Below, piece by piece: positions 1 through 49,041 of a DNA stretch of 64,000 nucleotides. A program made the translations under genes and the position numbers. The DNA comes from Pelagomonas calceolata. Lineage: Eukaryota. Location of the stretch: contig CAKKNE010000002.1 in NCBI GenBank assembly GCA_918797485.1, positions 5,766,001 through 5,830,000 of the forward strand. Reading direction: 5' to 3'. A model generated the notes under the pieces. It did not search any database, was not told the origin of the DNA, and saw only the letters and a list, made by a program, of their open reading frames with translations. How positions within the stretch are numbered: the stretch's first letter is position 1; the number at the start of each line of letters is the position of its first letter.

Positions 1-1
1 C

Positions 2-1567
2 GATCTCGCCGTTGCAGAAGCAGCCGACTAAAGGCAGGTTCCTCCTACCAGCTCTCAACGCCAGCGAGTCGCGGTTCGGCTTCAAATTGTGGAACCGCGC
101 GCCTCTTCCAGAGCACGTGAACACTAGGCCGCCGAGCACGCTGAGCGTCTCGTCGAGGCCCGACCGCAGCGGCAATGCTCTAGCACCGCGAGATTTGCTC
201 TCCAGCCGTAACGCGACACGACTGGCTTCGGCGGCGGCCTCGAGTTCTGAGACCGACGCGTCTGGCTCCAATGTGAGCCAGGCGCACCACGCGCCCTCGT
301 CGACGTCGCCGTCCAACGCTAAGGAACCATCGTCGTCCAGATGCTGCGGTGTGAGTAAATTGTAGCCGTCGGTCGGCGCCTCGTCCTCGCCATCATAAGG
401 TCTCACCCCAAAATATAAAGGCCGTGGCATGCGCCCCTGCGCGACGAACTGCTGCACTTCTCTCAATGAGGCCCCTGGAGACACATGAGTCGCTTCCACA
501 GCTTCAAAGGGCGCTTCCTTGTTGTACCTCGACGCCTTGACTACTAGCGAGTCAGCCTTGCCCATGGTGACGGCGTGGCCCGGGCAGATTCCCACGCGCC
601 ACGTCGACACGTCCGCCGCTTTGTAGACGTGGGGGCCCACGATCGCGGCGCCTCTGCTGACAGCGCTTGATGCCCGCGTCTGGCCCGCTATACTTAGTAC
701 AAGACAGCCCGCTCCACTATCATCGCTGAGGTCCGGCCTTATTATGTCTCCATCATCTACAAGCAAAGCGCCGCCCATCCCGACGTTTCTCGCTCCCAAC
801 AACCCGCCGGAAACCGCACACGGCGGGAACCCGGCCTTCGTCCAGGCCTCCCGGTTATCTTGGACTTTCTGCAACGCCGCGTGGGCCGCTCTTTGATCTT
901 CACTTAATACCAGCATCAATCGAGGCGCGTGCTCGGGGCCGTCCTCGGGCCCGGGTAATTTACCCACGACTTCCTGGGGCGGCGCGTGGGGGTCGCCGAA
1001 GGGCGGCACGTACAGCGAGGACAGTCTAGCGCCGCCGTCCAGCCGGATCAGACCGAGGGAGATGGCGCCGTGCTCGTCGCGGGGCTCGACCTCGTCCACC
1101 ACAGACTGTGTCGCACCTAACACACCGGGAGCCGCGCCCCCCAGCAACACCGTCGAGGCTGGTAAAACGCTCCGGAGGGCCTCCCTAAGATCAGCCAGGC
1201 GCCCTGCCCAGCCTCCAGAAGCAAAGAGCACGGCAATGTGCGGCGGCGCCGGCGGCTTGATCTCGTTGATGAGCTGTTTGACCGTCGTCTTGATATCTGG
1301 TATTTGTTCTTGCTTGGGCCGCGGTTCTTCTTCCTTGCCCATGCGCTCCCGCGCGCGCCGCAGTAAAAAGCCGCCGATGCGCCGCGCCGCGCTTTCTAAT
1401 CTAGCGGGCAGCGCCACGGGCGCGGCGCCTCTTTTCAAAGCAGTGAGAAAGTAGGGCCGCGCCGCGCGGCTCCGCGCGGCCGCGCCCAGGATCTTGGCCG
1501 TCGGCGCCGCCTTGCTGCCGTTGCCGACGTAGCTTAAGATGACCTCCCAGAGGAGCTCGTCGTCCAT
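2..1567 (-). CDS. FIST-domain protein with F-box-like N-terminus (FBXO22-like), 3'-partial
   Basis: Not in the ORF track because it runs off the window. Hand translation from ATG 1567: MDDELLWEVILSYV...PPHIAVLFASGGW...VLLGGAAPGVLG...LVFTCSGRGARF...LPLVGCFCNGEI, matching FIST_N/FIST_C motifs; no stop seen. Confidence 0.75.
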   Translation of the reverse strand, partial: MDDELLWEVILSYVGNGSKAAPTAKILGAAARSRAARPYFLTALKRGAAPVALPARLESAARRIGGFLLRRARERMGKEEEPRPKQEQIPDIKTTVKQLINEIKPPAPPHIAVLFASGGWAGRLADLREALRSVLPASTVLLGGAAPGVLGATQSVVDEVEPRDEHGAISLGLIRLDGGARLSSLYVPPFGDPHAPPQEVVGKLPGPEDGPEHAPRLMLVLSEDQRAAHAALQKVQDNREAWTKAGFPPCAVSGGLLGARNVGMGGALLVDDGDIIRPDLSDDSGAGCLVLSIAGQTRASSAVSRGAAIVGPHVYKAADVSTWRVGICPGHAVTMGKADSLVVKASRYNKEAPFEAVEATHVSPGASLREVQQFVAQGRMPRPLYFGVRPYDGEDEAPTDGYNLLTPQHLDDDGSLALDGDVDEGAWCAWLTLEPDASVSELEAAAEASRVALRLESKSRGARALPLRSGLDETLSVLGGLVFTCSGRGARFHNLKPNRDSLALRAGRRNLPLVGCFCNGEI

Positions 1568-14014: not shown

Positions 14015-14100
14015 CCTCCGTGACGACCGGGCACGAGTCAGCGCGACGCCGTCAGCGCGCCCCGGTCGACGCTCCGAGGCCAGTCTCAGAGCGCAAGCCC
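14015..14100 (+). repeat. 86-bp inverted repeat, left arm
   Basis: Exact reverse complement of 15840-15925. Confidence 0.9.
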
Positions 14101-14119
14101 TGGGCGGCCGCGTAACGCG

Positions 14120-14257: not shown

Positions 14258-14389
14258 ACCAAAACTAGTTAGTGTATTTTAAGGTAGCTCCTCGGCAGAC
14301 TATCTCAACCGCCGTACTCCCAAAGGTGCGTTCTCCTTTGGTCTTGCATCATTCGCATGCCAGCCCTGGGGAGCGCGTACGCCGCGCAA

Positions 14390-14615
14390 GTGCTGAGGAC
14401 TAGCTAGCCCACCAAGCGCTCGTCGCGCACGTGCTGAGGACTAGCTAGCCCGCCGTGTGCGCGTCGCCCGAGCGCTTATGACTAGCGAACCAGCCCTGCG
14501 CGCGCCGCGCAAGTGCTGAGGACTAGCTAGCCCACCGCGCGCTCGTCGCGCAAGTGCTGAAGACTACCTAGCCCGCCACACGCTCGACGAAAAAGTGCTG
14601 AGGACTAGCTAGCCC
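14390..14615 (+). repeat. 41-bp-period array: 6 copies of GTGCTGAGGACTAGCTAGCCC separated by 20-bp variable segments
   Basis: Units start at 14390, 14431, 14472 (degenerate), 14513, 14554 and 14595. Confidence 0.9.
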
Positions 14616-14641
14616 ACCGAAATTAGTCAAACCACACACAT

Positions 14642-15274: not shown

Positions 15275-15462
15275 GGTGCTTTGCGGGTGCCCTCTTGATG
15301 TCGGCGCGTGGCTGCGCGCAGTTCGAGCCTCGTGCTCTCCCGCGATTCGCGGCGACGCCGCGCGAGCAGCTGCATCACGGGTTTTGTCTCGGGTCCCTTC
15401 TCATCCCATGGATCGAGAAAAATCAGCTATGCTCACCGGTCTTTGGACCGTTGTACGTATCT

Positions 15463-15599
15463 GCCCCTTTGGCTCCGATGTTTTGAAAAGACATCGCCAC
15501 TAGTCGGTAGAGCGTCCGCACGCGTAACACCGTGCCGCCCAAGTCTCATAATGCATATAAGAAATCTGAAGGTCGACAGTTCGATCCTGTCAGGGGGCA
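15463..15599 (+). tRNA. tRNA-Met(CAT), elongator, with three introns (15476-15501, 15517-15541, 15551-15563)
   Basis: Spliced 73-nt cloverleaf: GCCCCTT TG GCTC AGTCGGTA GAGC G TCAGT CTCATAA TCTGA AGGTC GACAG TTCGATC CTGTC AGGGGGC A; followed by an oligo-T Pol III terminator. Confidence 0.9.
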
Positions 15600-15606
15600 G
15601 AGCATA

Positions 15607-15614
15607 TTTTTTTT
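15607..15614 (+). terminator. Pol III oligo-T terminator of tRNA-Met
   Basis: T8 run beginning 8 nt after the discriminator base. Confidence 0.7.
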
Positions 15615-15839
15615 GCTTTTAGTCTCTTACGGAACCCCCTGCCGGTGTAACTAGGGTAACTCGGCCCAATATCCCCAAGGGGGGGCTTGGCCCGAGCGAA
15701 AAGCTACATTTACGTTGGGGGGCTGCCACCGACGACCCCCCGGCGGCCGAAGATGGGCCTCCTCGACGCCCACGTTCGTACCCCGTTGTCTATTCCCGTG
15801 GTCGTCCCCGAGCGCCGAAACGCGACTAAAACGGCTCCG

Positions 15840-15925
15840 GGGCTTGCGCTCTGAGACTGGCCTCGGAGCGTCGACCGGGGCGCGCTGACGGCGTCGCGCT
15901 GACTCGTGCCCGGTCGTCACGGAGG
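15840..15925 (-). repeat. 86-bp inverted repeat, right arm
   Basis: Exact reverse complement of 14015-14100. Confidence 0.9.
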
Positions 15926-17156: not shown

Positions 17157-18305
17157 TTAACGCCTCCTACCGGGACTCCGCCCGCCCTTCCGGCTCTCCT
17201 GGATCATGCTCACCTCGAAGTCCGTCATGCCCTTCTTCTTGATGCCCTGGACGAACTGGAGCCGCATCGCGCGCTCGGCCGCCGCTCTCTTTTTCGCTTC
17301 CGCGGCGCCCGGCGAGTCCACCGGCGCGTTCGGGTTGAGCAGCTCGCGCAGCTCGCGCGCCTCCTCGCGCGACATCTTCCCGTCGTTCCCGAGGTCGTCC
17401 ACCAAGCTCGCGGCCCGCTTCTGCGACGCCGTCGGCGACTTCTTGGCGACGGGCGACGGGAAGCCGTCGCGCCGCTTTGGAGGCGACCGCTTCGGCATCG
17501 GCGAGCGCGCCGTCGCGCCGTCCTCGGAAGTGTTCGGCATAAACGCCGAGACGAGTCTCAAATCCTTGGCCGAGAAGCCGCCGGCCTGCTCTCCTAGTAA
17601 ATACTTGACATGTTTCAAGTCCGCGGGCGTCCTGGGCCGTCTTCTCCTCCGCCGCGGCGCCGCGACGGGTGCGAGCGCGATGGATCCCACCGACGGGCGC
17701 GGCGGCGGCGCGGCTATCGATCTCCGCCGGCGGCGCGGCCGCCGCGGTTCACTGGTAGCGGCGGCGGTGCCCAATTCCGCAATCCAGTTCGTGGGCGAGG
17801 GCGCCGCAGGCATTTCCGGGACTCCGCCGCCAAAGCGCACCGGCGACCTCTGAACGGGCGCCGGGAAGTCCAGCGGCTTCAATAGAGCCGCCGCGTCCGC
17901 GGGCCCCGCTAATAAACCTTCCATGTACTCGGGGTTCGGCAATCCAAACCTATCGACGGGCCGCGCCGCGCGCGTCCGCCGTCCATCGATTCTTTTGATA
18001 TAGTCCGGCCGGCCCCCGAGGTACTCGGGGCCTTGCACCGTCTCGATCTGCGGTAGTAATCGCGGAACCGCCTTCGTGGGTGGTGGGTCCTGGAAGCGCC
18101 GTCTCACGGGCGGCGCCGCCGCGGCTTCCAGAAACTCGGCCTGGGCGATCTGCATGCTCAAGAACTCGTCGCGCTCCCTTATAGCTCGCTTTTGCCGGTC
18201 CTGCGCGCGTCTTTTTCTATCATCGTCCCTCAATAAAAGCTCGCGCTCGCGGTCGGCGGCCGGGTCCTCCCAGCCGGCGCGCCGGCCGTAGCGGTTGCGG
18301 CCCAT
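17157..18305 (-). CDS. Hypothetical basic, Pro-rich protein
   Basis: Long ORF; likely start MGRNRY at 18305 in AAAAATG context; no family recognised. Confidence 0.6.
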   Translation of the reverse strand: MGRNRYGRRAGWEDPAADRERELLLRDDDRKRRAQDRQKRAIRERDEFLSMQIAQAEFLEAAAAPPVRRRFQDPPPTKAVPRLLPQIETVQGPEYLGGRPDYIKRIDGRRTRAARPVDRFGLPNPEYMEGLLAGPADAAALLKPLDFPAPVQRSPVRFGGGVPEMPAAPSPTNWIAELGTAAATSEPRRPRRRRRSIAAPPPRPSVGSIALAPVAAPRRRRRRPRTPADLKHVKYLLGEQAGGFSAKDLRLVSAFMPNTSEDGATARSPMPKRSPPKRRDGFPSPVAKKSPTASQKRAASLVDDLGNDGKMSREEARELRELLNPNAPVDSPGAAEAKKRAAAERAMRLQFVQGIKKKGMTDFEVSMIQESRKGGRSPGRRR

Positions 18306-36676: not shown

Positions 36677-37093
36677 ATGTCGGTCACCGGCAAGCGCGGC
36701 GTCGGCGTGCCGGTGATCCTCATGCACGACGGCGAGGGCACGATCGTGACGGTCGAGTGCAAGAACGGGGACACGTACCGCGGGTTCCTGGACGAGACGG
36801 AGGACAACATGAACTGCATCCTGAAGGACGCGACGCGGACCGACGCCAAGGGGAACAAGACAGCCGTCGAGCACATCTTTTTGCGGGGGTCGCAGATCGC
36901 GTTCTTCGTGTTCCCCAACATGCTGAAGAAGGCGCCGATGTTCAAGCGCGTCCGGGACTGGAAGCGGAACAACTCGAAACGGCGGCCGGTCCAGGGGGGG
37001 CAGGCGCGCGGCCAGGCCGCGGCGATCATCCGGAAGGCGCAGCTGCGGCAGCAGCAGCAGATGCAGATGCTCCAGGCGGGGCCGCCCCGATGA
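36677..37093 (+). CDS. SNRPD3: Small nuclear ribonucleoprotein Sm D3
   Basis: GVPVILMHDGEGTIVTVECKNGDTYRGFLDETEDNMNC...IFLRGSQIAFFVFPNMLKKAPMF. Confidence 0.9.
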   Translation: MSVTGKRGVGVPVILMHDGEGTIVTVECKNGDTYRGFLDETEDNMNCILKDATRTDAKGNKTAVEHIFLRGSQIAFFVFPNMLKKAPMFKRVRDWKRNNSKRRPVQGGQARGQAAAIIRKAQLRQQQQMQMLQAGPPR

Positions 37094-37273
37094 TGACAGT
37101 CCTGTTCGATCGTCGTTTTTAGTTTAAGTAGTGGTCTTCTCTCCCGGATATTGGTCGTGCGCTGTTGGAGTTTTCTAGCCTGATGCACCCCCCGCGTGCC
37201 GCTGGTCCTCGAATCGACGGCGTTGTGGTCGTCGTCGCGTGGGTGGGGCAAAAAAAGGCAAAAAGAGAAACCT

Positions 37274-37382
37274 CACCCGAGGTGGGACTTGAACCCACGA
37301 CCAGTATCCTCTGCGCGTAGCAGATCTGGATTAAAAGTCCAGCGCTCTGACCAACTGAGCTACCTATGCCTGAAGATCGGGC
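37274..37382 (-). tRNA. tRNA-Lys(TTT) with two non-canonical introns (37377-37365 at 5/6; 37325-37304 at 43/44)
   Basis: Spliced 74-nt cloverleaf: GCCCGGG TA GCTC AGTTGGTCA GAGC G CTGGA CTTTTAA TCCAG TGGTC GTGGG TTCAAGT CCCAC CTCGGGT G; oligo-T runs downstream. Confidence 0.9.
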
Positions 37383-37674
37383 AGTGACAGATACGTCTGT
37401 CGCGTACAGCAGTCGTGCGCGGTGCGGTTTTCGTGCGGGTTCAGTTGCCACCCATTATATTTCGTTCGTCAAAAAAACCCGGCCGCCTGCTTTTCTCGCG
37501 TCGTTGGCGAGTATCCTCAAAGAGCTGACACGGAGCCCACCGTCGGTCGCCGGTGTGCTGTATTCCGACAAGCGCACCAAAATCTCGGCGAAAACGGGAC
37601 CCGTTCGGGCGCCTTATTGAGAGCATCTCAGGCTGTCTTGGCTGCGCGGCGAAGGCGTCGCCAAGGAAGCACGC

Positions 37675-39570
37675 ATGGCGGACGACGTGAGTGACGAGCC
37701 GCCCGTCGGCGACGCGCGCACCAGCTGGCTGCCAGCGCAAAGCGCACAAATTCTCGCTCTCGGCGACGCCGCGCGCCGCAGAAACGCTGCGTACCAAAAT
37801 GCCTGGCAAAAGCTGCAGCCGCCCGCGAAGACGCAGCCGCTCAAAAGTTCGGAGCGCCGGAGCTTGCGCCAGGCGCTGCAGAAGCAGTTTGCGCCAGCGC
37901 TCGACGCGGCCGAAGCCATCGACGCAGTATTGCCGACGAGCAAAAACGCCGCGGTGACGCGCGGCCGCCAAGACAGGACGGAGCTGATCCTCGTCGACGG
38001 CGTCGTGGCGCTCGCGTCGCAAGAGCCGGTCGACGGGGACGCGAAATCGAGAGCCGCGCGCAAGACGTGGGTCCCGACGCCGCTCGTGCTGCAGCGATGC
38101 CCGCACATCCTGCGACAAGTCGCCGTGCATGCGCCCGTGGCGCACGGCCCCCTCAAGCGGGGTGCAGATTTGTACGCGGGCGGCGTCGTCGGCTTCGGTC
38201 ACGCGACGCGGGAGACAGCGGGATCGTGGCCCGAGGCGCTCTTTGGCGGCCCCATCGCCCAGGGCGAGCTAGTCGCGGTCTGCGCGCGCGATTCGTGGGC
38301 GCCCGTCGCCGTCGGCCGATTTTCGAAATCTTCCGAGGACATGGTGCTCGAGGGGAGCCGCGGCGCGTGCGTCGACGTACTGCTCAGAGTCGGCGACGGC
38401 GTCTGGCCCAACACGGCCGTGGACGCGTCGACGTCGTCGTCGAGCCCGCCCGAATTCTGCGTCGCCGCCGCCGCGGCGGCGGCCGAGAGCGCGGCGGACG
38501 CGCTCGCCTTGGCCGCGGAGCGGCACGCCGCGCGGACCGCTGCGGCGGCGGCGGCCGCGCACGCGGCCGAGGTCCTCGACCTCAAGGCGCGGACGAAGCG
38601 CCTCGCCAAGTCGCTCCGCCAGGTCGCGGACCTGCGCGGGCGGGAGCTCAAGGACGACGCGCAGCGCACCAAGGCCGCGCGCGGGCCCGCGCTCGAAGCG
38701 GAGCTCGCCTACGCCGAGGCCCGGCTCGCGGAGCTCCAGCGCGCGGTCGACGACGCGGCTGCGTCCAATGGTGTCGCTGAGGCCGCTGTTGAGGGCGCCG
38801 CCGGAGATACGGACGAGGCCGCGGGCGCCGATGTCGGCGACGATGGCGCTGACGCCGAGACCGAAGCCGCCGCCGGCGACACGGACGCTGCAGATGACGA
38901 CGACGAAGAGGAGGCCGCCGCGCCGCCGCCGTCCCCCGACGAGATCTTCCGCGCAGCGTTCCTCACGACACTGCGGCGCGACCTGAAGCCGCCCGTGCTC
39001 GCCGCCGAGGCCGTCGGCGCGGCGGCGAAGCTAGGGGGCGCGTCCGTGAAGGAGACGTCGTGGAAGAAGGCTGCCAAATTCCTGGAGAGCCTCGCGGGCG
39101 TCGTCGACTGCAGGGAGAAGTCCAAGGGCGTCCTCGAGGTCGTGTCCGTGGACTGGGGTCGAGCGCCTCCGTTTGAACTCGTCGAGAAGGCTGCCGTCGC
39201 GGACGAGTTCGCCGCGCTGCGCGCCACGAAGAGGGGAGGCTGCGTCACCGTCTCCGTGCGGCGCGTGCGCAACAAGAACTGCACGTTCGTGGACGGGTTA
39301 GACGGGTGGGGCTTCGACGAAGCGCGACAGAAAGCCGTCGCGGCGGCCCTCCGGACCAAATTCTCCGCCGCGGCGTCGGTCGCGGCGAGAAAAGGCACCG
39401 AGGACAACCGCAAGGGCAAGAAGTTCTTCTCGATCATGGTCCAGGGCAAGTACGCCGAGCAGATCGGCGACGTCCTCCGGCGGGATTTTGGCGTGCTCAC
39501 TGTGTCAGTGCAGGCGAAGAAGGGCCTGGTGACGAAGAAGGACCGGCAGGCGTTCTCGAGCGCGCTCTAG
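37675..39570 (+). CDS. EIF2D: eIF2D/ligatin-like protein (PUA and SUI1 domains)
   Basis: LKSSERRSLR, GADLYAGGV (PUA), VKETSWKKAAKFL, RNKNCTFVDGL...IMVQG (SUI1). Confidence 0.75.
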   Translation: MADDVSDEPPVGDARTSWLPAQSAQILALGDAARRRNAAYQNAWQKLQPPAKTQPLKSSERRSLRQALQKQFAPALDAAEAIDAVLPTSKNAAVTRGRQDRTELILVDGVVALASQEPVDGDAKSRAARKTWVPTPLVLQRCPHILRQVAVHAPVAHGPLKRGADLYAGGVVGFGHATRETAGSWPEALFGGPIAQGELVAVCARDSWAPVAVGRFSKSSEDMVLEGSRGACVDVLLRVGDGVWPNTAVDASTSSSSPPEFCVAAAAAAAESAADALALAAERHAARTAAAAAAAHAAEVLDLKARTKRLAKSLRQVADLRGRELKDDAQRTKAARGPALEAELAYAEARLAELQRAVDDAAASNGVAEAAVEGAAGDTDEAAGADVGDDGADAETEAAAGDTDAADDDDEEEAAAPPPSPDEIFRAAFLTTLRRDLKPPVLAAEAVGAAAKLGGASVKETSWKKAAKFLESLAGVVDCREKSKGVLEVVSVDWGRAPPFELVEKAAVADEFAALRATKRGGCVTVSVRRVRNKNCTFVDGLDGWGFDEARQKAVAAALRTKFSAAASVAARKGTEDNRKGKKFFSIMVQGKYAEQIGDVLRRDFGVLTVSVQAKKGLVTKKDRQAFSSAL

Positions 39571-39607
39571 TAGGTAAGTTGTTGTGAGTTGTGTCGAAAT
39601 GCACCGT

Positions 39608-39710
39608 GGGCTAGCTAGTCCTCAGCACTTTTTCGTCGAGCGTATGACGGGCTAGCTAGTCCTCAGCACCTGCGCGGCGTGCGCAGGGCGGGCTAGCTAG
39701 TCCTCAGCAC
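39608..39710 (-). repeat. Second 41-bp-period array (3 units of the same 21-mer)
   Basis: GGGCTAGCTAGTCCTCAGCAC at 39608, 39649 and 39690. Confidence 0.9.
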
Positions 39711-39739
39711 TTTTGCCCGACACGCGCCGCAGGCGGCTA

Positions 39740-40143
39740 TAAACTAAAAACGACGATCGAACAGGACCGTCATCATCGGGGCGGCCCCGCCTGGAGCATC
39801 TGCATCTGCTGCTGCTGCCGCAGCTGCGCCTTCCGGATGATCGCCGCGGCCTGGCCGCGCGCCTGCCCCCCCTGGACCGGCCGCCGTTTCGAGTTGTTCC
39901 GCTTCCAGTCCCGGACGCGCTTGAACATCGGCGCCTTCTTCAGCATGTTGGGGAACACGAAGAACGCGATCTGCGACCCCGCAAAAAGATGTGCTCGACG
40001 GCTGTCTTGTTCCCCTTGGCGTCGGTCCGCGTCGCGTCCTTCAGGATGCAGTTCATGTTGTCCTCCGTCTCGTCCAGGAACCCGCGGTACGTGTCCCCGT
40101 TCTTGCACTCGACCGTCACGATCGTGCCCCCGTTCTTGCACTC
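39740..40143 (-). pseudogene. 5'-truncated, frameshifted inverted copy of SmD3 plus its 3' UTR
   Basis: Near-identical to about 36739-37127; one G missing in the CGGGGG run; short internal duplication (GAGTGCAAGAACGGGG) at the 5' junction. Confidence 0.8.
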
Positions 40144-40300
40144 GTGCTGAGGACTAGCTAGCCCACGGTACGATTCGAAACAACTCACAACAACTTACTT
40201 GCTAGAGCGCGCTCGAGAACGCCTGCCGGTCCTTCTTCGTCACCAGACCCTTCTTCGCCTGCACCGACACCGTGAGCACGCCGAAGTCCCGCCGGAGGAC
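40144..40300 (-). repeat. Inverted copy of the eIF2D 3' end, 3' UTR and one 21-mer unit
   Basis: Reverse complement of about 39472-39628 with scattered substitutions. Confidence 0.85.
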
Positions 40301-44998: not shown

Positions 44999-45530
44999 TT
45001 AGGCGTTGTCTACGGCCTTCCCGGCGACTGCGTCTCGCGGGCGCCTTCCCGGCGACGGCGTCTCGCGGGCGCGGAGCGCGGCTCGCGCGTTTCGCAGCTC
45101 ATCCTCGATCCCCGTTGTGGTCGGGTGCGCACCGCCGAGCACCCGCCGCGCGGTCCGTCCTATCTCCTCGAACGTCGTCACGCTTTCGCGGAGATCGTCG
45201 AGCGTGGCGCTGGCGTCCTTGCAGAGCGCCACCGCGTAATTCCACCTCATCTTGAGCGTGAGTTCTTGACTCTCGCCGAGAACGCGTCGCGTCACGGGTG
45301 TCGTTTTGCGCAGCAGCGACTTGGCTTCTTCGAAGCGTTGTAGATCAATAAGGCTATTCGCGTAGTTGCTGGCTTCTATCAGCGTTGTTGGATCTTCCTC
45401 GCCCTCGAGGCTCAGCCACCCAGAGTATACATCTCGCCGCAGGCGTAGACCCTCTTCAGACCGTCCAAGCATTGCATACGAGTTCGCAAGGTTGCCCTGA
45501 GTGATGAGGATGTTGGATTCTGACATGCCC
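44999..45530 (-). pseudogene. 5'-truncated TPR-like repeat gene fragment
   Basis: NLANSY...EEGLRLRRDVYSG...ATLDDLRESVTTFEEIGRTARRVLGGAHP; the apparent N-terminus of the listed ORF is the antisense of a second fragment. Confidence 0.6.
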
Positions 45531-45532
45531 AA

Positions 45533-45700
45533 GACACCGGCGCCACGCTCGACGATCTCCGCGAGGCCGTGACGACGCTCGAGGACCCGGAACGGATCGC
45601 GCGGCGCGTGCTCGGGAGTGCGCACCCGATCACATTGAAGATTGAGGACTCATTGCAAGACGCACGAGCCGCGCTCCGCGCCCGTGAAGACTCAGTGTAA
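45533..45700 (+). pseudogene. Second C-terminal fragment of the same TPR-like family, opposite orientation
   Basis: DTGATLDDLREAVTTLEDPERIARRVLGSAHPITLKIEDSLQDARAALRAREDSV*. Confidence 0.7.
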
Positions 45701-45706
45701 AACAAC

Positions 45707-47143
45707 TTAAATAAACGCCTCCTCGAGCCCCTCGGCCTGCGCCGCCGCCGCCTCGCCGCCGAATTCCAATTCCCCGCCGAGCTCCTCCTCGTGGACCGCC
45801 TGCGTCAGCGCCTCGACGAAGGCGCGGACGTCGCCGAAGCAGTTGTAGAGCGGCGCCGGCGCCACCCTCAAGACGTCGGGTCGCCGCAGGTCCGCGAAGA
45901 TATGCGCCTTCTGGAGCCGCCCAAACACACCCTCGACGGTCCCGTCATTGAATTTTATCGACAGCTGCGCGCCTCTTCTGGAAGGGTCCCGCGGCGTCAC
46001 GATTTCCAAGGACGGGTGCTCGAGCGCTATTAATAACTCCAGGTACGCCGTCAGCTTTAGGGATTTTGCCCGCAACGCATCGATGGACGCGGCGTCGTGC
46101 AATCTATAAGCCTCGCGGAGCGCGACCATGGGTAAAGTAGGGGGGTTCGACAATTGTAGACCGGCCGCGCCCGCCCGATAGACCGGCTCCTGGTTCATCT
46201 CAAAGCGCGTCGACCGCTCGTGGCCCCACCAGCCCCGCAGCACCCCAGGTAAGGAGCGCGTGTCGTGCTTTGCGTGGACGAACGCGCCCGCGATGGCGCC
46301 GGGCCCACTATTCAAATATTTATAGGAGCACCAGCACGCGAAGTCCACCCCATCATCATGCAGCTGCAACGGCACGTTGCCCGCGGCGTGGGCGCAGTCC
46401 AATCCCAATAAAGCTCCTTGCGCGTGCGTGGCTTCCGCGAGTTTACGCGCGTCGAACCACTCGCCCGAGTAGTACTGCACCGCGCCGATGAGAACGACAC
46501 ATAACCCATCGGTTGCGTTGATGGCTTCCACTAATTCATCCGTGCCCCCTTCCACCCTTATGATGTCCTCCTCACTCCCGCCTCGACTGGAAACGCAGCT
46601 CTGCACGGCGTATTCATCACTCGGAAACGCGTGCGCCTCGATCAATATTTTCCTCCGTGTACCTTCTGGTCTATAAAAAGCGGACAGTAAGAGGTGGAGG
46701 TTGACGGTCAGCGAGTTCATCAGGACGACCTCCGAACGTTGGGCACCAACTAACCTTGATGCCTCCTCTTCCGCGCAGTCCTCGATGGTCCACCACCTCG
46801 TGGACGGCGCCTCGTCCTGGTCGAAGTGGCCCTCCACACCGTACGTTGCCCACCTTTGTAAATCGTCAAGCACGGCCTGCTTCGTTTTTTTGGGTTGCAG
46901 CCCCAGCGAGTGGCCGCATAAATATATAGCGTCGCGTCCATGATTAGGAGGCGGGAAGCAGAACTGCTGCCGGTATTCCCTTAATGGATCCGCTTCGTCG
47001 AGCGCTGCTGCTAGCTCTTCACTTCGCACGTCGAGGCCGCGCTTCGATGCCTCGTCGAGGAGTTCCGGGATCTTCGAGGAAGGCGCTTGGTTTAGGATCG
47101 CATCGATGGCCGCGGCGTCGTCGTCGTCGGCGAATGCGGCCAT
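45707..47143 (-). CDS. KYNU: Kynureninase (PLP-dependent)
   Basis: IYLCGHSLGLQP, MNSLTVNLH, AFPSD, DCAHAAGN, DFACWCSYKYLNSGPG, RGAQLS. Confidence 0.95.
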   Translation of the reverse strand: MAAFADDDDAAAIDAILNQAPSSKIPELLDEASKRGLDVRSEELAAALDEADPLREYRQQFCFPPPNHGRDAIYLCGHSLGLQPKKTKQAVLDDLQRWATYGVEGHFDQDEAPSTRWWTIEDCAEEEASRLVGAQRSEVVLMNSLTVNLHLLLSAFYRPEGTRRKILIEAHAFPSDEYAVQSCVSSRGGSEEDIIRVEGGTDELVEAINATDGLCVVLIGAVQYYSGEWFDARKLAEATHAQGALLGLDCAHAAGNVPLQLHDDGVDFACWCSYKYLNSGPGAIAGAFVHAKHDTRSLPGVLRGWWGHERSTRFEMNQEPVYRAGAAGLQLSNPPTLPMVALREAYRLHDAASIDALRAKSLKLTAYLELLIALEHPSLEIVTPRDPSRRGAQLSIKFNDGTVEGVFGRLQKAHIFADLRRPDVLRVAPAPLYNCFGDVRAFVEALTQAVHEEELGGELEFGGEAAAAQAEGLEEAFI

Positions 47144-47304
47144 TTGCCTTGTGCAGGCTGCAGCAGGCTGATTGCTTGCCTGGGGCGAGGTGTGCAGCAG
47201 TGATCAGAGATCACCGATGGATAAGGAGTAATAGGGCTTGCCAGGCGAGCTCAATTGCCCAACCTGCTCACCAATGCCAGCATGCAAGCTTGAGGCTCAC
47301 GCTT

Positions 47305-47328
47305 GCTAGTGCCTTACAGGCCGCTAGC
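47305..47328 (+). promoter_or_regulatory. GCTAG-TGCCTTAC-N5-GCTAGC motif at the centre of the KYNU/KMO divergent promoter
   Basis: About 160-170 bp from each ATG. Confidence 0.6.
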
Positions 47329-47496
47329 AAACTGCTTGGGCCCAAAACAAAAAAAGAGACGTGTCGCGGAAGCCCGTGAGCACAGCTCTGCAAATTATCA
47401 CTCGGTGCATCGGTTCTTAGCCGCTCTTGCACGGAGCTGCCACCTGCGCCCAAAAAGCATTCACAGAGCAAGCTCTCTCCAGCTCAGCCTGCAGCC

Positions 47497-49041
47497 ATGG
47501 CCGAAATGGCCGCGCGGGACCGCAAGCACCAGGAGCTCGGCGACGCGTTGGTAGAGAGACGGCGCCACGAAGTGACCATCGTCGGCGCCGGCCTCGTCGG
47601 CTCTTTATTGGCCGTAGTTTTACGCAGTCGAGGGTATCGCGTCACGGTCTACGAGGGTCGACGAGATCCACGAGAAGGCACGCAAGAAAACAGCGCCGGG
47701 CGGAGCATCAACCTCGTCGCGACGGCCCGTGGCCTCAAGGCACTGTCTACGCTACCCCCGGACGTGGCCACGCGCCTCAAAGCTTTAGGTACAAAAGTAT
47801 ATGGCCGCGTCATCCATACTAGTGAAGGCGAAATCTTAGCGCAGAAGTACGGCAAGAACGACAACGAGTACAACATATCGCTCTCCAGAAGTAAGTTAAA
47901 TGATTTCCTGCTCGGCGAGGCGGAAAGAGCCGGCGCTTCGATCAAGTTCGGCCACCGCTTGGTCAATGTGAAGCTCCCCGCCGATTCTGAGTCTCCAACT
48001 CAACTGGAGTTCACGATGGGCGGCGGCGGCACGTGTTTGACGGCGTGTTTCGGGCCCGTCATTGGGTCCGACGGCGCTGGTTCAGCATTGCGACGAGCCG
48101 TACCGGCCTTCGAAGCTTCTTCGGACATATTGGCGGCGGGCTACAAGGAAGTTTTGTTGCCGGCCCATTGTTCCCAGACCTTGGATCAGTTCGGTTTACA
48201 CATTTGGCCGCGCGGCGACCATTTCCTGATGGGTCTGGCCAATAAAGATGGCTCGTTTACCGGTACCTTATATTTAGCGAACGAGGGTGACCTGAGCTTC
48301 TCATCTTTAAATAGCGAGGAGAAATGGCGCCAGTTCCTGAACGAGCACTACGCCGACGCGTTACCATACATGGACGGCGTCGACAAAGCGGCAGAACAAC
48401 TATACAACAACCCCCTGGGCATGCTCGGCACGGTGAAAGTAGCACCCTGGCGCGTCGGCAATCGAATAGCAGTAATAGGAGACGCGGCGCACGCGGTCGT
48501 GCCGTTCTTCGGGCAAGGCATGAATTGTGGTTTTGAAGATGTCGACTGTTTGGCGCAGGAATTATCTACAAGATGGCCACCTAAGGATGGAACTCCCCAA
48601 AAACTGGAGCAAGCGCTGGAGTCGTACTCACTAAGACGAAAACCAAATGCAGATGCCATCGCACAAATGGCTTTGGAAAACTACGTGGAGATGATGCGGT
48701 CGACGGGCGACCCCGTGTTTCGTTCTAGGAAAGCCATCGAGGCGGCGTTGGAGCGGGATGGGGAGCTAGGAGCTTCATTTCGGTCGCGCTATGCCATGGT
48801 TTGTTATGGGGGCGGCCGGCAAAAAGGCGCCGTGGGCTACGCGCACGCTTTGCGACTAGGCGAGGCGCAGTGGGGCGTCGTCTGTGATTTGGCCGAGGGC
48901 TTTTCGGGGAGCGATTCCCAGGAGGCGGACGCGTTCTTAGATCGCAAGCGAGCAGCTCAACTGCTGGAGGAGCGCGTGTGGCCGTTACAAAAGCAGCTCG
49001 GCGTGGACCTCGCGACCGTGGGGATCGGCTCAGCTTCCTAA
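47497..49041 (+). CDS. KMO: Kynurenine 3-monooxygenase (FAD)
   Basis: IVGAGLVG, GRSINL, YKE, LHIWPRG, N-x-DGSFTGTL, GDAAHAVVPFFGQGMNCGFED, MALENYVEM. Confidence 0.92.
   Translation: MAEMAARDRKHQELGDALVERRRHEVTIVGAGLVGSLLAVVLRSRGYRVTVYEGRRDPREGTQENSAGRSINLVATARGLKALSTLPPDVATRLKALGTKVYGRVIHTSEGEILAQKYGKNDNEYNISLSRSKLNDFLLGEAERAGASIKFGHRLVNVKLPADSESPTQLEFTMGGGGTCLTACFGPVIGSDGAGSALRRAVPAFEASSDILAAGYKEVLLPAHCSQTLDQFGLHIWPRGDHFLMGLANKDGSFTGTLYLANEGDLSFSSLNSEEKWRQFLNEHYADALPYMDGVDKAAEQLYNNPLGMLGTVKVAPWRVGNRIAVIGDAAHAVVPFFGQGMNCGFEDVDCLAQELSTRWPPKDGTPQKLEQALESYSLRRKPNADAIAQMALENYVEMMRSTGDPVFRSRKAIEAALERDGELGASFRSRYAMVCYGGGRQKGAVGYAHALRLGEAQWGVVCDLAEGFSGSDSQEADAFLDRKRAAQLLEERVWPLQKQLGVDLATVGIGSAS

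What the first reader, a model, noticed from the sequence alone, without database searches (positions are those of the whole stretch)
37274..37382. tRNA-Lys(TTT) with an intron inside the acceptor stem (5/6) and another at 43/44
Seen (minus strand): GCCCG|ATCTTCAGGCATA|GGTAGCTC...TCCAG|ATCTGCTACGCGCAGAGGATAC|TGGTC. Intron 1 BHB: central helix T(-1)GCC/GGCA, bulges CG^A and TA^G, outer helix AC/GT. Intron 2: helix ATCC/GGAT, bulges AG^A and AC^T, inner helix TCTGC/GCAGA. There is no canonical 37/38 intron. A 6/7 junction would also pair, but the BHB geometry selects 5/6 and gives the usual Lys GCCCGG start. Inference: the first BHB uses 5'-leader bases and the acceptor stem cannot form until the intron is removed, so splicing should precede RNase P cleavage. 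With both tRNA genes found in the window disrupted at four different ectopic positions, this looks genome-wide, and standard scanners would tend to miss or truncate such genes.
Basis: partly seen in the sequence, partly recalled or inferred. Interest (0 to 1): 0.9.

Follow-up and report, generated by a model that had tools for sequence, protein, structure and literature searches.

The report
Algal tRNA with acceptor-stem intron
A marine alga's lysine tRNA gene is broken by two short inserts at unusual places, one in the amino-acid-accepting stem; related genomes carry the same gene with one or both inserts missing, so they are very likely archaeal-style introns, a layout I found described only for archaea and red-algal lineages and not for this stem in eukaryotes.

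Summary
Confirmed. Minus strand 37382-37274 is a tRNA-Lys(UUU) gene in three exons, with a 13-nt insert at 5/6 (acceptor stem) and a 22-nt insert at 43/44. Both sit in exact bulge-helix-bulge register (4 of 4 helix pairs; 1-nt shifts give 1-2 of 4). Syntenic orthologues fix the junctions independently. One relative has no introns and reads G5-G6 and G43-U44. Two others keep the 5/6 intron with a different loop, lack 43/44 and carry a 59/60 T-loop insert instead. The window's tRNA-Met(CAU) has three introns (13/14, 28/29, 37/38) and is missed by ARAGORN and Rfam. The host is a flagellated eukaryote whose nearest named homologues are from the pelagophyte Aureococcus. Splicing itself is not shown: poly(A) reads do not cover the gene, and no contig joins the exons. 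Ectopic BHB introns are known from red algae, a nucleomorph and archaea. The new points are a stramenopile nucleus, an acceptor-stem position in a eukaryote, and intron turnover among close relatives.

The parts
37383..37392 (-). 5' leader; bases -1 to -3 (37383-37385) supply one pair of the central helix and two pairs of the outer helix of the intron-1 BHB
   Evidence: -1..-3 identical in window, L001 and L003, different in intron-less L002. Transcription start not mapped.
37378..37382 (-). tRNA-Lys(UUU) exon 1, positions 1-5
   Evidence: 5/5 identical to L001, L003 and intron-less L002
37365..37377 (-). Intron 1 at 5/6 in the acceptor stem, 13 nt, hBHBh'-type (central helix -1..3 paired with the intron)
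   Evidence: 4/4 helix; last 6 nt identical in 3 of 3 orthologues while the loop varies in length and sequence
37326..37364 (-). Exon 2, positions 6-43, with intact A box and UUU anticodon
37304..37325 (-). Intron 2 at 43/44, 22 nt, HBh'/BHL-type (central helix 38-41 with the intron, 5-bp inner stem, 5-nt loop)
   Evidence: 4/4 helix plus 5-bp stem; it is the minimum-energy local fold; absent from L001, L002, L003, L004
37274..37303 (-). Exon 3, positions 44-73, with intact B box and G73
   Evidence: T-stem pair 50-64 is T-A here and C-G in L002
37250..37264 (-). T5 and T7 runs, likely Pol III terminator
   Evidence: sequence; poly(A) reads show zero depth from 37248 to 37478, so the gene lies outside the neighbouring mRNAs
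15463..15599 (+). Second disrupted gene, elongator tRNA-Met(CAU), four exons, T8 run at 15607-15614
   Evidence: ARAGORN calls tRNA-Met(cat), 73 nt, after in-silico removal of three inserts; not found or 12
15476..15501 (+). tRNA-Met intron at 13/14 (D-stem, splits the A box), 26 nt
   Evidence: 4/4 helix plus 8-bp inner stem, 0 of 20,000 shuffles
15517..15541 (+). tRNA-Met intron at 28/29 (anticodon stem), 25 nt
   Evidence: 3/4 helix plus 5-bp inner stem, 0 of 20,000 shuffles for both together
15551..15563 (+). tRNA-Met canonical intron at 37/38, 13 nt
   Evidence: 3/4 helix including the C32-G pair

Best explanation
This is a nuclear tRNA-Lys(UUU) gene of a likely pelagophyte alga, split by two inserts that are very likely bulge-helix-bulge introns, predicted to be cut out by a splicing endonuclease that reads local RNA shape and not distance from the tRNA body. 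Shown: the three exons, the two BHB registers, and orthologues lacking either insert. Inferred steps: (1) Pol III makes one precursor from a short leader to the T runs. (2) Leader bases -1..-3 and bases 1-3 pair with the end of intron 1 and with G7-U8, forming the first BHB in competition with the acceptor helix. (3) Bases 38-41 pair with intron 2 in place of the anticodon stem, forming the second motif. (4) The endonuclease cuts each bulge after its second base and a tRNA ligase joins G5-G6 and G43-U44. (5) The finished acceptor stem is then trimmed by RNase P and RNase Z and gets CCA. Intron 1 is probably removed while the leader is still attached (about 70%). The introns are probably neutral passengers, tolerated because the enzyme is permissive, and they come and go among close relatives.
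For: Intron-less syntenic orthologue L002/L004 (one organism, 99.9% identical; LSM gene convergent in both, eIF2D also in L004) equals the predicted spliced product at 70 of 74 positions, with both junctions contiguous and one compensatory T-stem change. L001 and L003 lack the 43/44 insert and read U44, and keep the 5/6 insert. Across window, L001 and L003: exons 2+3 match at 68-69 of 69, exon 1 at 5/5, leader -1..-3 at 3/3 and the BHB-forming intron end at 6/6. The intron loop matches at only 3/11, 6/8 and 4/11, and the upstream flank at 39-46 of about 60. In L003 the outer helix runs 4 pairs, against 2 in the window. Environmental contigs carry both inserts, with changes in the loops: of 38 listed substitutions in X15, 5 fall in the gene and all 5 lie at 37315-37317 or 37371-37372 (23 rows not shown). 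Register tests. Folding with a 10-15 nt leader plus 16-nt trailer gives the BHB helix a probability of 0.54-0.76 in all three genes; with neither leader nor trailer it is 0.01 or less. A second gene in the window has two more ectopic inserts in BHB register. Splicing of such introns was shown by RT-PCR in C. merolae (PMC3728597) and Chondrus crispus (bioRxiv 10.1101/2021.12.21.473619).
Against: No RNA evidence of splicing or even transcription. There are 0 reads on the gene in 4 poly(A) runs of one sample (6-12% of each run read), which such libraries cannot be expected to show, and no joint across either insert in 4 contig sets. Whole-precursor folding is no better than shuffles (z 0.18 and -0.76; intron-1 region z -0.14). 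The BHB probability swings from 0.0 to 0.8 with the assumed ends. The helix bases of intron 1 never vary among the 3 orthologues, so there is no compensatory change, and the 60 nt downstream are almost as conserved as the exons (57-58/60). The 59/60 inserts of L001 and L003 have only 1/4 and 2/4 central pairs. One environmental variant (X14 record 8, X16 record 20) shows an insertion at 37384 and a deletion at 37377 whose effect on the BHB I could not resolve. The endonuclease genes were not examined.
Confidence: 0.82

Rival explanations
1. Same introns and same enzyme, but RNase P removes the leader first from the alternative fold (bases 1-5 paired with 68-72, intron looped out). Intron 1 is then cut from a relaxed 3-bp helix, so no order is imposed.
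For: The acceptor-type fold is the minimum-energy fold without a leader and ties with the BHB fold with a 10-nt leader. Relaxed and 'no H' motifs are spliced in C. merolae (PMC3728597), and the 59/60 inserts of L001 and L003 have weak central helices.
Against: After leader loss the BHB helix falls to 0.01 or less without trailer and 0.13-0.47 with trailer. Leader -1..-3 is kept in 3 of 3 intron-bearing genes and differs in the intron-less one. RNase P reads the acceptor/T-arm top half (PMC3978253), which here would be only a 5-6 bp stem with a large loop-out.
Confidence: 0.2
2. The locus is a decaying pseudogene or an unexpressed copy, and the inserts are small hairpin insertions that are never removed.
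For: No transcript was seen. A second, intron-less Lys(UUU) gene elsewhere in this genome cannot be excluded because no genome is held. The downstream flank is also highly conserved.
Against: Exons are near-invariant across four lineages, with a compensatory T-stem change. A box, B box and T runs are intact. Inserts fall at exact BHB register in 3 of 4 ectopic cases in the window (4/4 helices) and 3/4 in the fourth, across two genes. All 4 of 4 metagenome hits to exon 2 are at this syntenic locus.
Confidence: 0.07
3. Only one insert, or neither, is spliced: the mature 5' end lies inside 'intron 1' (as Rfam aligns it, start 37369) and/or the 43/44 hairpin is kept as a long variable arm.
For: Rfam aligns the gene that way at 53.7 bits. 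The last six bases of intron 1 are conserved in 3 of 3 genes, as a mature 5' strand would be.
Against: That acceptor has two non-standard pairs, while exon 1 pairs fully with the unchanged 3' strand. Exon 1 is kept 5/5 at two different spacings (13 and 14 nt) and matches the intron-less orthologue. The 43/44 insert includes a 4-nt stretch complementary to 38-41 that a variable arm would not need, and it is absent from 4 of 4 related loci.
Confidence: 0.05
4. The inserts are removed by the spliceosome or by self-splicing.
For: Earlier unchecked scan notes report mRNA-type introns in fungal tRNA acceptor stems; these are leads only.
Against: The inserts are 13-26 nt, lack GT...AG ends and are far too short for group I or II cores.
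Confidence: 0.01

Closest known systems
[quoted passage not shown] 2013, PMC3728597; read parts 1-3 of 6: results, discussion, start of methods)
   Same: Nuclear genes with 2-3 short (11-69 nt) introns at non-37/38 positions, strict and relaxed BHB forms, A or B boxes interrupted, downstream T runs.
   Different: Its 42 introns lie at 37/38, D-stem, D-loop, variable arm, T-stem and T-loop; none is listed in the acceptor stem or the anticodon stem. It is a red alga, whereas this host is a likely stramenopile. No permuted gene was seen in this window.
Ectopic introns of Chondrus crispus (PlantRNA 2.0, bioRxiv 10.1101/2021.12.21.473619; whole text read) and of the Guillardia theta nucleomorph (as summarised in PMC4090602 and PMC13578239; passages only)
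   Same: Eukaryotic non-canonical tRNA introns, missed or called pseudogenes by tRNAscan-SE; elongator tRNA-Met with 2-3 introns.
   Different: C. crispus uses two fixed sites (20/21, 58/59). Nucleomorph sites are in the D arm, T arm and anticodon stem-loop, and most cannot form a BHB (PMC3728597). Both are red-algal in origin. Here five different ectopic sites (5/6, 13/14, 28/29, 43/44, 59/60) appear in two tRNA species.
Non-canonical BHB introns of Thermoproteales archaea, including position 3/4 (Sugahara et al. 2008 as cited in PMC4090602; the original was not read)
   Same: Multiple introns per gene, recognition by local BHB only, evidence of recent intron spread, and one acceptor-stem position (3/4) whose motif must also draw on leader bases (my inference from BHB geometry).
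   Different: Archaeal (alpha-beta)2 enzyme and archaeal promoter; 3/4 is called an extreme case and another review says archaeal introns avoid the acceptor stem (PMC10485636). This case is a eukaryotic nucleus and position 5/6.
Canonical eukaryotic 37/38 introns cut by four-subunit TSEN (PMC10485636; passages and section 6)
   Same: Short, protein-spliced, same bulge geometry; the window's tRNA-Met has one.
   Different: [quoted passage not shown] An intron inside the acceptor stem cannot be positioned that way.

Membership tests
Ectopic BHB-type tRNA introns (archaeal / C. merolae type) | 4-bp central helix with both splice sites after the second base of 3-nt bulges | tested here: met
   4/4 pairs at 5/6 and at 43/44; 1-2/4 when shifted by one base; intron-2 motif is the local minimum-energy fold
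Ectopic BHB-type tRNA introns (archaeal / C. merolae type) | Removal restores a canonical cloverleaf equal to uninterrupted orthologues | tested here: met
   ARAGORN tRNA-Lys(ttt), 74 nt; 70 of 74 identical to intron-less L002 with both junctions contiguous
Ectopic BHB-type tRNA introns (archaeal / C. merolae type) | Short intron at a position other than 37/38; free loop variable, motif-forming bases constrained | tested here: met
   13 and 22 nt; loop 3/11-6/8 identical against 6/6 for the motif end; environmental changes in the loops. No compensatory pair was seen in the central helix.
Ectopic BHB-type tRNA introns (archaeal / C. merolae type) | Precursor transcribed and spliced in vivo at the predicted junctions | tested here: inconclusive
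   0 reads on the gene in 4 poly(A) runs; no joint in 4 contig sets; neither data type is suited to tRNA
Ectopic BHB-type tRNA introns (archaeal / C. merolae type) | Excision by a tRNA splicing endonuclease that does not need the mature domain, then ligation | not testable with these tools
   Needs in vitro cleavage; the endonuclease subunit genes are not in the window and no genome is held
C. merolae-type genome with mostly disrupted tRNA genes | A majority of nuclear tRNA genes carry ectopic or multiple introns or are permuted | tested here: inconclusive
   2 of 2 credible tRNA genes in 64 kb; a relative has this gene intron-less
Canonical eukaryotic tRNA intron | Single intron at 37/38 | tested here: not met
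   Anticodon loop of the Lys gene is uninterrupted
Permuted or split tRNA genes | 3' half upstream of the 5' half, or halves at separate loci | tested here: not met
   Exons are collinear within 109 nt
Spliceosomal introns | GT...AG ends, branch point, sufficient length | tested here: not met
   Ends are AT...TA and AT...AC; 13 and 22 nt

The most novel reading that the evidence does not exclude
Pelagomonas-like pelagophytes, among the commonest ocean picoalgae, are an undescribed third eukaryotic setting for archaeal-style tRNA splicing, in a host nucleus outside red algae. Most tRNA genes would carry ectopic introns, the endonuclease would cut even inside the acceptor stem using a leader-built motif that orders splicing before RNase P, and transcription would tolerate split A and B boxes. 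Introns would be gained and lost at different positions of one orthologous gene between lineages about 90% identical, making tRNA intron birth observable at population scale.
Probability: 0.5. Interest if true: 0.86.

Novelty: new variant of a known kind. Interest (0 to 1): 0.72.

Why it matters
Reviews list ectopic tRNA introns in eukaryotes only for red algae and algal nucleomorphs, and use that pattern to argue about ancestry (PMC13578239). A stramenopile nucleus with five different ectopic sites would favour repeated independent origin wherever the endonuclease is permissive. A 2023 review predicts that eukaryotes with two-subunit TSEN may cut non-canonical introns that tRNAscan-SE's eukaryotic mode cannot see (PMC10485636); this locus is a ready test case in an alga that appears to be in culture (its proteins are in MMETSP). 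An intron in the acceptor stem removes the surface on which human TSEN54 anchors, so it is a sharp probe of the ruler model and of the order of splicing and RNase P. Three intron states at one orthologous gene make the open question of how tRNA introns are gained testable with population genomes. In practice, tRNA sets of these algae are probably under-annotated.

Tried and rejected
Whole-genome census: no genome is held. Direct splice evidence: 4 poly(A) raw-read runs gave zero depth on the gene, and 4 contig sets gave no joint (organism B's contigs do not cover the gene). These are uninformative, not negative. The exon-2 pattern found 0 matches in prokaryotic genomes and 0 in viral contigs. 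ARAGORN's 'tRNA-Asn(att)' at 17833-17918 and 'tRNA-Gly' with a 452-nt intron, and five further calls from a scan of 33,319 single deletions (Cys, Pro, Tyr, Thr, Pro): Asn and those five were drawn and rejected because they lack normal D- and T-loop motifs and lie in long ORFs; the Gly call was not examined beyond having no B-box T-arm. That scan removes one insert at a time, so genes with several ectopic introns, T-loop introns or permutation could be missed. Folding z-scores do not support the motif. Junction alternatives 4/5, 6/7, 42/43 and 44/45 were rejected. The Met and L003 rows were off by one base and were redone; only the values are used for them. A 7-mer shared upstream of both tRNA genes occurs 9 times in the window against 5.0 expected (7 of 100 shuffles reach 9), was picked after the fact and differs in relatives, so it is a weak lead only. 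One homologue search timed out. The Atlas gave only 'Eukaryota', and the PDB search did not place the organism. Earlier scan notes: none for this genome or sequence.

Full report
Observation. Rfam finds a tRNA at 53.7 bits but begins it at 37369, inside the first insert, with two non-standard acceptor pairs and the second insert as a gap. ARAGORN does not report the gene. With both inserts removed in a script, ARAGORN calls a 74-nt tRNA-Lys(ttt). Poly(A) reads show the LSM mRNA ending near 37134-37142 and the eIF2D mRNA starting near 37500, with zero depth from 37248 to 37478, so the gene is intergenic.

Host. The window is eukaryotic: 62.6% GC, with MCM, PRP39, PI3K and flagellar DRC7, IQCH and SHIPPO genes. 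Nine of ten proteins looked up lie on a 6.14-Mb contig, several also in MMETSP. The nearest named homologues of PRP39 (cluster at 50% identity) and kynurenine monooxygenase (55%) are from Aureococcus anophagefferens, a pelagophyte stramenopile. I take the host to be a pelagophyte. The genus Pelagomonas fits what I recall of its genome size and GC, but no call shows it, and no tree was built.

Are the junctions real? In strict register (4-bp helix, cuts after the second base of each 3-nt bulge), the 5/6 placement gives 4 of 4 pairs, a 2-bp outer helix from leader -2/-3 with G7/U8, and a 1-bp inner pair; 6/7 gives 2 of 4 and 4/5 gives 1 of 4. The 43/44 placement gives 4 of 4 plus a 5-bp inner stem; its neighbours give 1 of 4. 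Shuffled introns reach 4 of 4 in 0.4% and 0.7% of 20,000 trials; random window positions do so in about 2%. The local minimum-energy fold of the intron-2 region is exactly this motif, closed by 30-33 pairing with 45-48 (a bulge-helix-loop). The motif alone proves little, since lax criteria give 33,319 sites in the window and overall folding energies are no better than shuffles.

Orthologues settle the junctions. One scan of metagenome contigs with exon 2 returned 4 loci, all 4 linked to the same LSM and/or eIF2D neighbours. L002 and L004 are one organism (99.9% identical; 83% to the window in LSM) and hold the gene with no insert. It matches the predicted product at 70 of 74 positions, reads G5-G6 and G43-U44, and differs by a compensatory 50-64 pair. 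L001 and L003 (about 90% to the window) keep the 5/6 insert at 14 nt, lack the 43/44 insert and carry 23- and 26-nt inserts at 59/60. In L001 the first intron base is T, which excludes 6/7. Among the three intron-1-bearing genes, exons 2+3 match at 68-69 of 69, exon 1 at 5/5, leader -1..-3 at 3/3 and the motif-forming intron end at 6/6; the loop matches at 3/11, 6/8 and 4/11, and the upstream flank at 39-46 of about 60. The downstream 60 nt also match at 57-58, which weakens the contrast, and the central helix shows no compensatory change. Environmental contigs (X14, X15, X16) carry both inserts with changes in the loops. In X15, 5 of 38 listed substitutions fall in the gene, all in the loops; the record has 45 differences in all, so up to 7 are unseen. 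One variant has indels at 37384 and 37377 that I could not resolve.

Second gene. A B-box and T-arm scan found only two credible tRNA genes in the window. The other, 15463-15599(+), is elongator tRNA-Met(CAU) with inserts at 13/14 (4/4 helix, 8-bp stem), 28/29 (3/4, 5-bp stem) and 37/38; ARAGORN accepts it after removal and neither tool sees it before. So 2 of 2 genes here are disrupted, but that is no census: no genome is held, and one relative has the Lys gene intact. tRNAscan-SE reported 123 tRNAs for an Aureococcus draft (PMC11237714, passages), so a shortage of detectable genes is not evident across the class.

Mechanism. Shown: anatomy, registers and orthologue states. Inferred from the known BHB pathway: one Pol III precursor, cuts by a structure-reading splicing endonuclease, ligation, then RNase P, RNase Z and CCA addition. 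Bases 1-5 can pair with 68-72 with the intron looped out. That fold dominates without a leader (0.8-0.98) and ties with the BHB fold given a 10-nt leader (-35.2 vs -35.2 kcal/mol). With a 10-15 nt leader and the trailer, the BHB helix reaches 0.54-0.76 in all three genes; with neither it is 0.01 or less, and with trailer only 0.13-0.47. Values swing widely with the assumed ends. So the leader favours the spliceable fold, and early RNase P cleavage would tend to trap the precursor; I put splicing-first at about 70%. The Met 13/14 intron splits the A box and the relatives' 59/60 inserts split the B box, which hints at upstream-driven transcription as proposed for C. merolae (PMC3978253, passages); this is untested. 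Splicing in vivo is not shown: 0 reads on the gene in four poly(A) runs of one sample and no joint in four contig sets, neither suited to tRNA.

Comparison with what is known. It works like the ectopic BHB introns of C. merolae, whose 42 introns are listed at 37/38, D-stem, D-loop, variable arm, T-stem and T-loop (PMC3728597, parts 1-3 of 6). Chondrus crispus has them at 20/21 and 58/59, validated by RT-PCR; that study also annotated two heterokonts and mentions no such introns for them (bioRxiv 10.1101/2021.12.21.473619, whole text). The G. theta nucleomorph has them in the D arm, T arm and anticodon stem-loop, and Thermoproteales archaea have one at 3/4 (PMC4090602, passages). A 2026 review lists the same eukaryotic cases and no stramenopile (PMC13578239, passages and supplementary file 1). 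PMC4033280 (passages) lists only C. merolae for multiple introns in eukaryotes, and tRNAscan-SE's non-canonical search is described for archaeal mode (PMC8450103, passages; supplement search empty). Ten library searches turned up no report for pelagophytes or of a eukaryotic acceptor-stem BHB intron. The library is open-access only, figures are not held, and Sugahara 2008, Kawach 2005 and Maruyama 2010 were not read, so a prior mention cannot be excluded. Unchecked earlier scan notes describe archaeal acceptor-stem introns at 4/5 and 70/71; I did not test them.

Verdict. The feature is real. It meets every sequence-level test for ectopic BHB introns; the in vivo and enzyme tests remain open. 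It is a new variant of a known kind: probably a new host lineage, a new position for eukaryotes that draws on the leader, and three intron states at one orthologous gene. Confidence in the best explanation 0.82; interest 0.72. The bolder reading, a genome-wide and fast-turning system in pelagophytes, has probability 0.5 and interest 0.86.

Noticed in passing
window 15463-15599 (+): Elongator tRNA-Met(CAU) gene with three introns (13/14, 28/29, 37/38), invisible to ARAGORN and to Rfam even at E<=1. The 13/14 intron splits the A box.
   Followed up: yes
L001 and L003, T-loop of tRNA-Lys, position 59/60: Relatives about 90% identical carry 23- and 26-nt inserts at 59/60 that split the B box, with an inner stem but only 1-2 of 4 central pairs ('no H'-like). 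The insert is absent from the window.
   Followed up: partly
window 39472-40300: A 394-bp, 99%-identical inverted copy of most of the LSM gene (36733-37126) lies at 39740-40132 between 157-bp inverted repeats (39472-39628 and 40144-40300, 93%). Related repeats occur at 14373-14619. It looks like a gene fragment captured by a terminal-inverted-repeat element.
   Followed up: no
window 37191-37241: A 51-nt piece just downstream of the tRNA is shared, with one difference, by a transcribed sequence from another locus: reads have loose ends on both sides in 4 of 4 runs, and the same loose ends appear in X13.
   Followed up: no
window 37389-37395 (-) and 15456-15462 (+): The same 7-mer lies just upstream of both tRNA genes (at -13..-7 and -7..-1). 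It may mark a Pol III start element, but it is not significantly enriched and is altered or absent in relatives.
   Followed up: partly
window 45707-49041: Kynureninase and kynurenine 3-monooxygenase genes lie head to head, two steps of one pathway side by side in a eukaryote.
   Followed up: no
window 14015-14103 / 15837-15925 and 45063-45217 / 45533-45687: Further inverted repeat pairs (89 bp at 99%; 155 bp at 81%), the first pair enclosing the tRNA-Met gene.
   Followed up: no
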